Positions 92 through 130 of a DNA stretch of 64,000 nt are shown one piece after another; the first letter of the stretch is position 1, and every line of letters begins with the position of its first letter. Under the pieces are notes generated by a model that was not told the DNA's origin, did not search any database, and saw only the letters and a program-made list of their open reading frames with translations. The translations under genes were made by a program, and so were the position numbers. This DNA is from Stylophora pistillata (Eukaryota), in the NCBI RefSeq assembly GCF_002571385.2, contig NW_019218055.1, positions 50,704 to 114,703 of the forward strand, written 5' to 3'.

Positions 92-130
92 GACTTGATA
101 ATGACGTTATGTTAACGTCGAAACGTCGTC
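92..130 (+). ncRNA. Candidate minimal type-I hammerhead ribozyme (Penelope-like repeat)
   Basis: GAC-TTGATAA-T-GACGTT..AACGTC-GAAA-CG-TC-GTC: stem I, variant core, stem II, palindromic stem III. Confidence 0.55.

What the first reader, a model, noticed from the sequence alone, without database searches (positions are those of the whole stretch)
92..130. Minimal hammerhead-ribozyme fold with a compensatory U3-A8 catalytic core
Seen: GAC (stem I), UUGAUAA, U, a GACGUU/AACGUC hairpin (stem II), GAAA, CG, UC, then GUC (stem I partner). Known: the hammerhead core is C3-U-G-A-N-G8-A9 with a tertiary C3-G8 pair, and Penelope-like elements carry minimal type-I hammerheads with a palindromic stem III that work as dimers. 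Here both 3 and 8 are changed to U3-A8, which keeps the pair, and one extra U follows A9. Inference: a covariant self-cleaving motif that a CUGANGA search would miss, in a T-rich pLTR-like context cut by the window edge.
Basis: partly seen in the sequence, partly recalled or inferred. Interest (0 to 1): 0.7.

Follow-up and report, generated by a model that had tools for sequence, protein, structure and literature searches.

The report
Penelope retrotransposon mini-hammerhead, U-A core
This is a real, already described type of miniature hammerhead RNA motif at the end of a broken Penelope jumping gene in a coral genome, predicted but not shown to cut itself; in most sister families the gene's likely start codon lies inside the motif, so cutting would also switch off the element's protein.

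Summary
The motif at 92-130 is as described. It is a minimal type-I hammerhead in the terminal repeat (pLTR) of a truncated, inverted-plus-direct Penelope-like insertion with a 12-bp target duplication. RT and GIY-YIG remnants lie upstream and in sister copies. The genome holds 1,180 U3-A8 and 3,012 C3-G8 pattern matches but only about 288 mixed ones. Across 20 sister families stems I and II covary strongly (59 of 60 and 74 of 80 cells paired). The U3-A8 swap, the extra base after A9 and dimer-dependent cleavage are in print (Cervera and De la Pena 2014; Perreault 2011). This scan noted the same class in other genomes. Within the family, copies decay neutrally, the lone motif prefers an inactive fold, and cleavage was not testable. 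One addition: the bulged base is U in 20 of 20 families, making an AUG. In 13 of 20 families an in-frame AUG lies upstream of the cut site; the window's subgroup has its start downstream. A start codon inside the ribozyme is already reported for one lizard element. New member of a known kind.

The parts
1..26 (+). Last codons and stop of the Penelope ORF (end of the GIY-YIG endonuclease domain)
   Evidence: 3-26 translates IRAKLFV*; sister copies carry the same end on a frame that hits Pfam GIY-YIG, E 3.2e-6
27..91 (+). U-rich untranslated spacer of the pLTR
   Evidence: Shared by family copies; differs in length and sequence between families (57-124 nt or more)
92..130 (+). Minimal type-I hammerhead: stem I 92-94/128-130, core U3-A9 95-101, bulge U102, stem II 103-119, GAAA 120-123, palindromic ACGU 123-126, C17 at 127
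   Evidence: covariation; identical to the family majority at all 39 positions
101..115 (+). AUG formed by A9, the bulged U and G10.1; closed after 4 codons in this family
   Evidence: the same AUG is in the ORF frame in 6 of 6 families with a 15-nt stem-loop II
109..138 (+). Loop-II AUG reading through the core; closed by a stop after 9 codons here, open and in the ORF frame in families D, E, I, K, R
174..239 (+). First 22 codons of the Penelope ORF (likely start of this family), second half of the pLTR
   Evidence: Peptide is like the N-termini of families B and C that run on into the ORF body (L196; L114)
221..239 (+). Optional 3' tail, present on this arm and absent from the inverted arm
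   Evidence: Inverted arm in L031 stops at the equivalent of about 220-222; 3' ends of 57 copies cluster at 214-225 and 239-242
240..251 (+). 12-bp target-site duplication, right copy
   Evidence: Same 12-mer at L031 5094-5105 next to the inverted arm; only these two occurrences in the window plus L031

Best explanation
The motif is a minimal type-I hammerhead with a U3-A8 core pair in the terminal repeat of a truncated Penelope-like retrotransposon copy, and in the parent element it likely cuts the element's own RNA after C127 only when paired with a second copy and probably helped by the element's protein. Shown: the anatomy, the insertion structure, the link to an RT/GIY-YIG ORF, covariation of both stems and of positions 3 and 8, and neutral decay of the genomic copies. 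Inferred from the literature: two motifs in a tandem transcript pair through the palindromic ACGU to form stem III; cleavage trims tandem or read-through RNA to unit length and removes the 5' end, which in 13 of 20 sister families carries an in-frame AUG. This particular copy ends an insertion, is followed by host DNA, and is likely an inert relic whose 39 bases happen to be still intact.
For: Own locus: inverted arm, ORF pieces with the RT half, a run of N, then the window, bounded by a 12-bp duplication; this is the arrangement drawn for PLEs in PMC8557442 section 6. Pfam RVT_1 and GIY-YIG on sister ORFs. Families picked by endonuclease likeness alone (57-74% identity) carry the U3-A8 motif after the stop codon. 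Genome counts 1,180 U3-A8, 3,012 C3-G8, 4,480 for either base at both positions, so about 288 mixed. 20 families: stem I 59 of 60 cells paired (permutation mean 37.8, 0 of 20,000 reach it), stem II pairs 2-5 74 of 80 (mean 48.0, 0 of 20,000). 13 equal-length families: 8 of 10 pairs change on both sides, score 0.636 versus 0.178 shuffled and at most 0.137 slid. Complete tandems with two motifs in sense, 2,752 nt apart in L185. Published: monomer inactive, dimer weakly active; lizard PAc motif cleaves only with its protein.
Against: No cleavage data for this sequence. Its best single-strand fold pairs the 5' arm of stem II with the core instead (-8.2 kcal/mol versus -7.1 for the hammerhead fold without stem III), as in families B and C, and the best two-strand fold is not the hammerhead dimer (-26.8 versus -15.9). 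Stem I is only 3 bp. No Rfam hit. Within the family the motif is not better conserved than its flanks: 100 of 2,223 cells differ (4.5%) versus 2.9-3.5%. In PAc, ribozyme mutants did not affect insertion in vitro and no RNA-seq reads ended at the cut site. The families are related and were picked by hand, and the search patterns fixed the core, so the permutation counts are not probabilities.
Confidence: 0.85

Rival explanations
1. The ribozyme is mainly a translation switch: the element's own protein licenses cleavage, the cut separates the cap and (in most families) the start codon from the ORF, and so protein synthesis is turned off; joining the two cut ends into a circle would put the AUG back on the ORF.
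For: Bulge is U in 20 of 20 families although the pattern left it free and the published consensus allows A, C or U. In 6 of 6 families with a 15-nt stem-loop II the A9-U-G10.1 AUG is in the ORF frame; in 7 families with 17 or 20 nt (D, E, I, K, L, R, Q) it is out of frame and a loop-II AUG is in frame. The frame runs into the conserved ORF N-terminus in D, E, I, K and J. PAc has its start at stem II and a protein-dependent ribozyme.
Against: The window's own subgroup (A, B, B2-B4, C) has its start downstream of the cut and family P has no in-frame AUG in the motif. In 3 of the 13 families the copy examined has a further in-frame AUG upstream. Start sites are read from sequence only. Overlap may simply reflect a compact repeat inherited once.
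Confidence: 0.3
2. The motif keeps a hammerhead-like fold but is selected as a binding or folding signal for the RT/EN protein, or as coding sequence, and hardly cuts in the cell.
For: Low published activity of minimal motifs; cleavage dispensable for PAc insertion in vitro; the GAAACGUC core is read as K-R-R codons in 13 families, which could hold it constant; inactive best fold in A, B and C.
Against: U3, A8 and the rest of the 5' core lie outside the reading frame yet are fixed, and 3 and 8 change together; families A, B and C keep the full core although their ORF starts downstream.
Confidence: 0.12
3. Chance hairpin in A+T-rich repeat DNA.
For: Not above chance within the window; weak fold; no Rfam hit.
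Against: 1,180 genome matches against 8 for the control, fixed position after PLE stop codons, compensatory changes in both stems.
Confidence: 0.01

Closest known systems
Minimal hammerheads (min-HHR) of metazoan Penelope-like elements, including the U3-A8 variant of Schistosoma mansoni Cercyon PLEs (PMC4209133)
   Same: Type I, short stem I, long stem II, extra base between 9 and 10.1, G10.1-C11.1, palindromic 15.2-16.2 without loop III, U-rich flank, position in the pLTR, mostly solo or inverted copies, U3-A8 core
   Different: Coral host; the cnidarian rows I read in its Fig. S3 are all C3-G8; here U3-A8 marks a whole group of about 20 related families; stem I only 3 bp; the paper's supplement has no 'start codon' mention
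PAc, Poseidon element of Anolis carolinensis (PMC11167929)
   Same: Ribozyme overlaps the ORF start; cut about 26 nt after the start of stem II; insertion ends about 111-118 nt after it plus an optional tail (here 114-125 and 139-142 nt after A101)
   Different: PAc is C3-G8; in the window's family the stem-II and loop AUGs are closed and the ORF likely starts at 174, downstream of the cut; tail about 20 nt rather than 30-40
Natural U3-A8 hammerheads (Perreault et al. 2011, PMC3088659)
   Same: Same compensatory core pair, stated there to be active in vitro
   Different: Those are not described as stem-III-less pLTR motifs in the passages I read
Animal non-LTR retrozymes (bioRxiv 10.64898/2026.07.22.740005)
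   Same: Type-I hammerheads related to PLE pLTRs
   Different: Retrozymes are non-coding tandem repeats; this motif is attached to an RT/GIY-YIG ORF and is not in a short tandem array

Membership tests
Minimal PLE hammerhead (PMC4209133) | Core YUGANRA and GAAA..UH with a 3-8 pair | tested here: met
   U95-A100; U126-C127; mixed 3/8 states about 288 of 4,480 matches
Minimal PLE hammerhead (PMC4209133) | Stem II with G10.1-C11.1 and an extra base after A9 | tested here: met
   7-bp stem, U102; covariation in 5 of 6 stem-II pairs counted
Minimal PLE hammerhead (PMC4209133) | Short stem I supported by covariation | tested here: met
   59 of 60 cells paired in 20 families, no pairing beyond pair 3; shorter than the 4-5 bp of the Schistosoma motifs
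Minimal PLE hammerhead (PMC4209133) | Palindromic 15.1-16.1, no monomer stem III | tested here: met
   ACGU at 123-126
Minimal PLE hammerhead (PMC4209133) | Self-cleavage after position 17, as dimer or protein-assisted | not testable with these tools
   Only assembled contigs were on offer; they cannot show RNA ends
Penelope-like element, EN+ | One ORF with RT followed by GIY-YIG | tested here: met
   RVT_1 and GIY-YIG on separate family-A pieces and on one 759-aa frame of sister family C, where GIY-YIG scored 20.1 bits, under Pfam's cut-off of 22.6; no intact family-A ORF was found
Penelope-like element, EN+ | pLTR made of ORF end, spacer, ribozyme and ORF start; inverted 5' copy; tail at one end | tested here: met
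   against PMC8557442 section 6
Penelope/Poseidon clade | CCHH motif in the endonuclease, DKG motif, no CX2-5CxxC linker between RT and EN | tested here: met
   Read by eye from translations against the definitions
Penelope/Poseidon clade | RT groups with reference Poseidon elements in a tree | not tested
   No reference elements were fetched; the tree holds only copies from this genome
Non-LTR retrozyme | Non-coding tandem units, each with a hammerhead | tested here: not met
   Motif follows an EN stop codon and precedes ORF codons; no second sense copy in the window

The most novel reading that the evidence does not exclude
In this coral Penelope lineage the hammerhead is a protein-gated translation switch built around the start codon: the invariant bulged U exists to spell AUG, a loop AUG takes over whenever stem II changes length by a non-multiple of three, and cleavage (or re-joining into a circle) decides whether the RT/endonuclease is made. 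The window's subgroup rewired it, moving the start behind the cut and gaining a competing inactive fold.
Probability: 0.25. Interest if true: 0.6.

Novelty: new member of a known kind. Interest (0 to 1): 0.25.

Why it matters
The U3-A8 motif itself adds a host, not a concept. What the hammerheads of Penelope elements do is still open: they cut poorly and are not needed for insertion in vitro. About 20 related coral families with the start codon before or after the cut site are a ready natural series for asking whether the ribozyme controls translation, trims tandem RNA or makes circles. Practically, a C3-G8-only search misses about a quarter of the matching motifs in this genome (1,180 of 4,480).

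Tried and rejected
Rfam scan of 1-3000: two chance snoRNA hits, no hammerhead. One search used a structure string that I mis-registered by one column; discarded and redone. RNA evidence: 4 runs on record as RNA hold 70-75% of the words of 1-242; laid, their contigs cover parts of it, but contigs show no strand, level or ends, DNA may be present, and the depth peak at 91-130 comes from sister families; no silent control stretch was laid, so transcription is not shown. Search for a full-length family-A element: none found in the loci fetched; the 2-2.6 kb shared downstream of five copies (L099-L103) does not encode the ORF. An intron joining the loop AUG to the 174 frame was considered; no joint of that kind and only a weak donor by eye. 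Whether the common C3-G8 family also starts at its bulge AUG: one search gave only copies ranked by the short peptide and was not followed up. Target duplications in 12 other inverted pairs: one clear 13-mer (L029), the rest 6-9 bases or no pair, not interpretable. Left out of the 20-family set: L131 (U3-G8), L088 and L092 (decayed copies). Lunse et al. 2017 on PLE hammerhead variants is not held; it may already list these coral families. Paper searches for the start-codon or autoregulation idea gave only the PAc paper as relevant.

Full report
Observation. Position 3 is U95, position 8 is A100, position 17 is C127. Taken alone the motif is unremarkable: one window match against 1.29 expected, fold z -0.59, no Rfam hammerhead.

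Where it sits. The window is G000:C271:50704-114703 in a 398-Mb genome; runs that hold the sequence are labelled coral metagenome or organism A. Bases 1-242 are a dispersed repeat: 254 candidates, 40 scored, 44 matches at 91-100%, with 20 exact copies of the 39-mer and 0 for the control. In sister copies the sequence before window base 1 is the end of an ORF that hits Pfam GIY-YIG, and further up RVT_1. The window starts with its last seven codons. In the window's own contig (L031) there is an inverted copy of the endonuclease end and repeat at 5106-5495, a sense piece of the ORF at 5493-5942, the N-terminal half of the RT to 6745, then about 3.3 kb of N (gap or withheld, I cannot tell) up to the window. 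A 12-bp duplication flanks the whole: L031 5094-5105 and window 240-251. The inverted arm stops at the equivalent of about 220, the direct arm at 239, so a tail is on one end only. This is the PLE insertion pattern of PMC8557442 (passages and section 6 read). CCHH and DKG motifs are present and the linker zinc finger is absent, which fits Penelope/Poseidon; no reference tree was built.

Is the fold selected? Within the family, no sign after insertion. Of 57 distinct copies (at least 150 nt, at least 88% alike, from the loci fetched), 18 match the 39-mer exactly and 36 keep the core; divergence is 4.5% in the motif against 2.9-3.5% in flanks, 8.1% at CpG columns and 3.1% elsewhere. That is neutral decay of dead copies. 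Between families the signal is strong. Loci picked only by endonuclease likeness (24 loci at L075-L098 examined) carry a U3-A8 motif after the stop codon in most cases, decayed in some, and three gave no output; none showed C3-G8 there. Genome-wide, descriptors give 1,180 U3-A8 (control 8), 3,012 C3-G8 (control 1) and 4,480 with either base (control 26), leaving about 288 mixed; independence would give roughly 1,870 by my arithmetic, though copies are not independent. I picked one natural copy for each of 20 families by hand from the first 100 listed matches and. Stem I pairs in 59 of 60 cells with six pair types at the outer pair; stem II pairs 2-5 in 74 of 80; no permutation of 20,000 reaches either; pairing stops after stem I pair 3. 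For the 13 equal-length families 8 of 10 pairs change on both sides, score 0.636 against 0.178 shuffled. The core letters were fixed by the patterns, and one search also fixed part of stem II, so only the free columns count. RT pieces of the U3-A8 families are 46-75% identical to family C (best pieces mostly 56-75%), two C3-G8 elements 30-39%: U3-A8 marks one group in this genome.

What is known. PMC4209133 (main text parts 1-2 of 4; supplement file 2, passages and part 2 of 3; file 1 not searchable) describes minimal PLE hammerheads, the extra base after A9, the palindromic 15.2-16.2, cnidarian sets, and the U3-A8 variant with about 1,300 hits in Schistosoma; monomers did not cleave and dimers cleaved weakly. 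PMC3088659 (passages) reports natural U3-A8. PMC6765202 (passages) reviews the dimer model. PMC11167929 (passages and section 3 part 2) shows the lizard PAc ribozyme cleaves only with its protein, is not needed for insertion in vitro, and overlaps the start codon. I saw part 1 of 5 of bioRxiv 10.64898/2026.07.22.740005 and the abstract of PMC13725137. Lunse et al. 2017 was not held. Earlier notes of this scan report the same class in other genomes; none matched this sequence.

The repeat after the ribozyme is the start of the ORF. Window 174-239 translates to a peptide like the N-termini of families B and C, which continue into the ORF body. The bulge is U in 20 of 20 families, so A9-U-G10.1 is an AUG. 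In 6 of 6 families with a 15-nt stem-loop II this AUG is in the ORF frame. In 7 families with 17 or 20 nt it is out of frame and a loop AUG is in frame; the core then reads as K-R-R or K-R-x. The frame continues into the conserved N-terminal domain in D, E, I, K (135 and 337 codons without a gap in L195 and L190; 889 across an N run in L185) and J. In 10 of these 13 the AUG in the motif is the first in-frame one; 3 copies have another upstream. Families A, B, B2-B4 and C start behind the cut; A, B and C group in the tree (83/99; A with B 98/96; one long outgroup, root unsure), and these three also prefer a fold that pairs stem II's 5' arm with the core. Family P fits neither pattern.

How it likely works. 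Shown: structure, context, covariation, decay. Inferred: in a tandem transcript two motifs pair through ACGU, helped by the bound RT/EN protein, and cut after C17. The cut releases unit-length RNA and removes the 5' end, with the start codon in most families. Whether that serves RNA trimming, circle formation or translation control is open; I put 0.85 on a genuine PLE ribozyme and about 0.3 on translation control as its main role. Against activity: the unfavourable folds, the 3-bp stem I, and the PAc results. The window's copy closes an insertion and is followed by host DNA; a sense partner is not seen, though one could lie in the N run. RNA contigs neither support nor exclude cleavage.

Verdict. 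Observation confirmed, interpretation supported, novelty low: a new coral member of a described ribozyme variant. The start-codon pattern across families is a modest, testable extension of what one paper showed for one element.

Noticed in passing
L031 1855-2796 (+), about 7 kb before the window: Single-frame HMG-box gene, 313 codons (Pfam HMG_box E 3.6e-24), Sox-like by eye; the Penelope insertion begins about 2.3 kb after it.
   Followed up: partly
L099-L103 (C49, C664, C1108, C1049 twice): Five family-A copies share 0.9-2.6 kb of non-coding sequence after the repeat at 92-95% identity, with an internal 80-nt direct repeat: the Penelope end was probably carried along inside a larger repeat or duplication.
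   Followed up: partly
L013, and a loose end in run X5: A junction where RT-coding sequence joins directly onto U3 of the ribozyme core through a short shared stretch; L040 also holds a copy that starts inside the core.
   Followed up: no
L185 (C193:280500-286200): Near-complete family-K element: inverted arm plus two sense ribozymes 2,752 nt apart around an RT/EN frame; its stem I has a U-U mismatch at the outer pair in all copies seen.
   Followed up: partly
genome-wide: Two very large C3-G8 families dominate; one matches the Acropora digitifera row of Fig. S3 in PMC4209133, the other has a bulge AUG opening a frame of at least 42 codons.
   Followed up: partly
L032 3395-5131 and 9128-10000: Long serine-rich low-complexity frames beside two inverted pairs of the same Penelope end, 4.2 kb apart.
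   Followed up: no
window 3894-3967 (+): tRNA-Thr(TGT) called by ARAGORN.
   Followed up: no
window about 560-780 and 1380-1790: By eye, a repeat-like stretch with a tRNA-like end on the minus strand, and three imperfect copies of a short motif beginning GCCGG.
   Followed up: no
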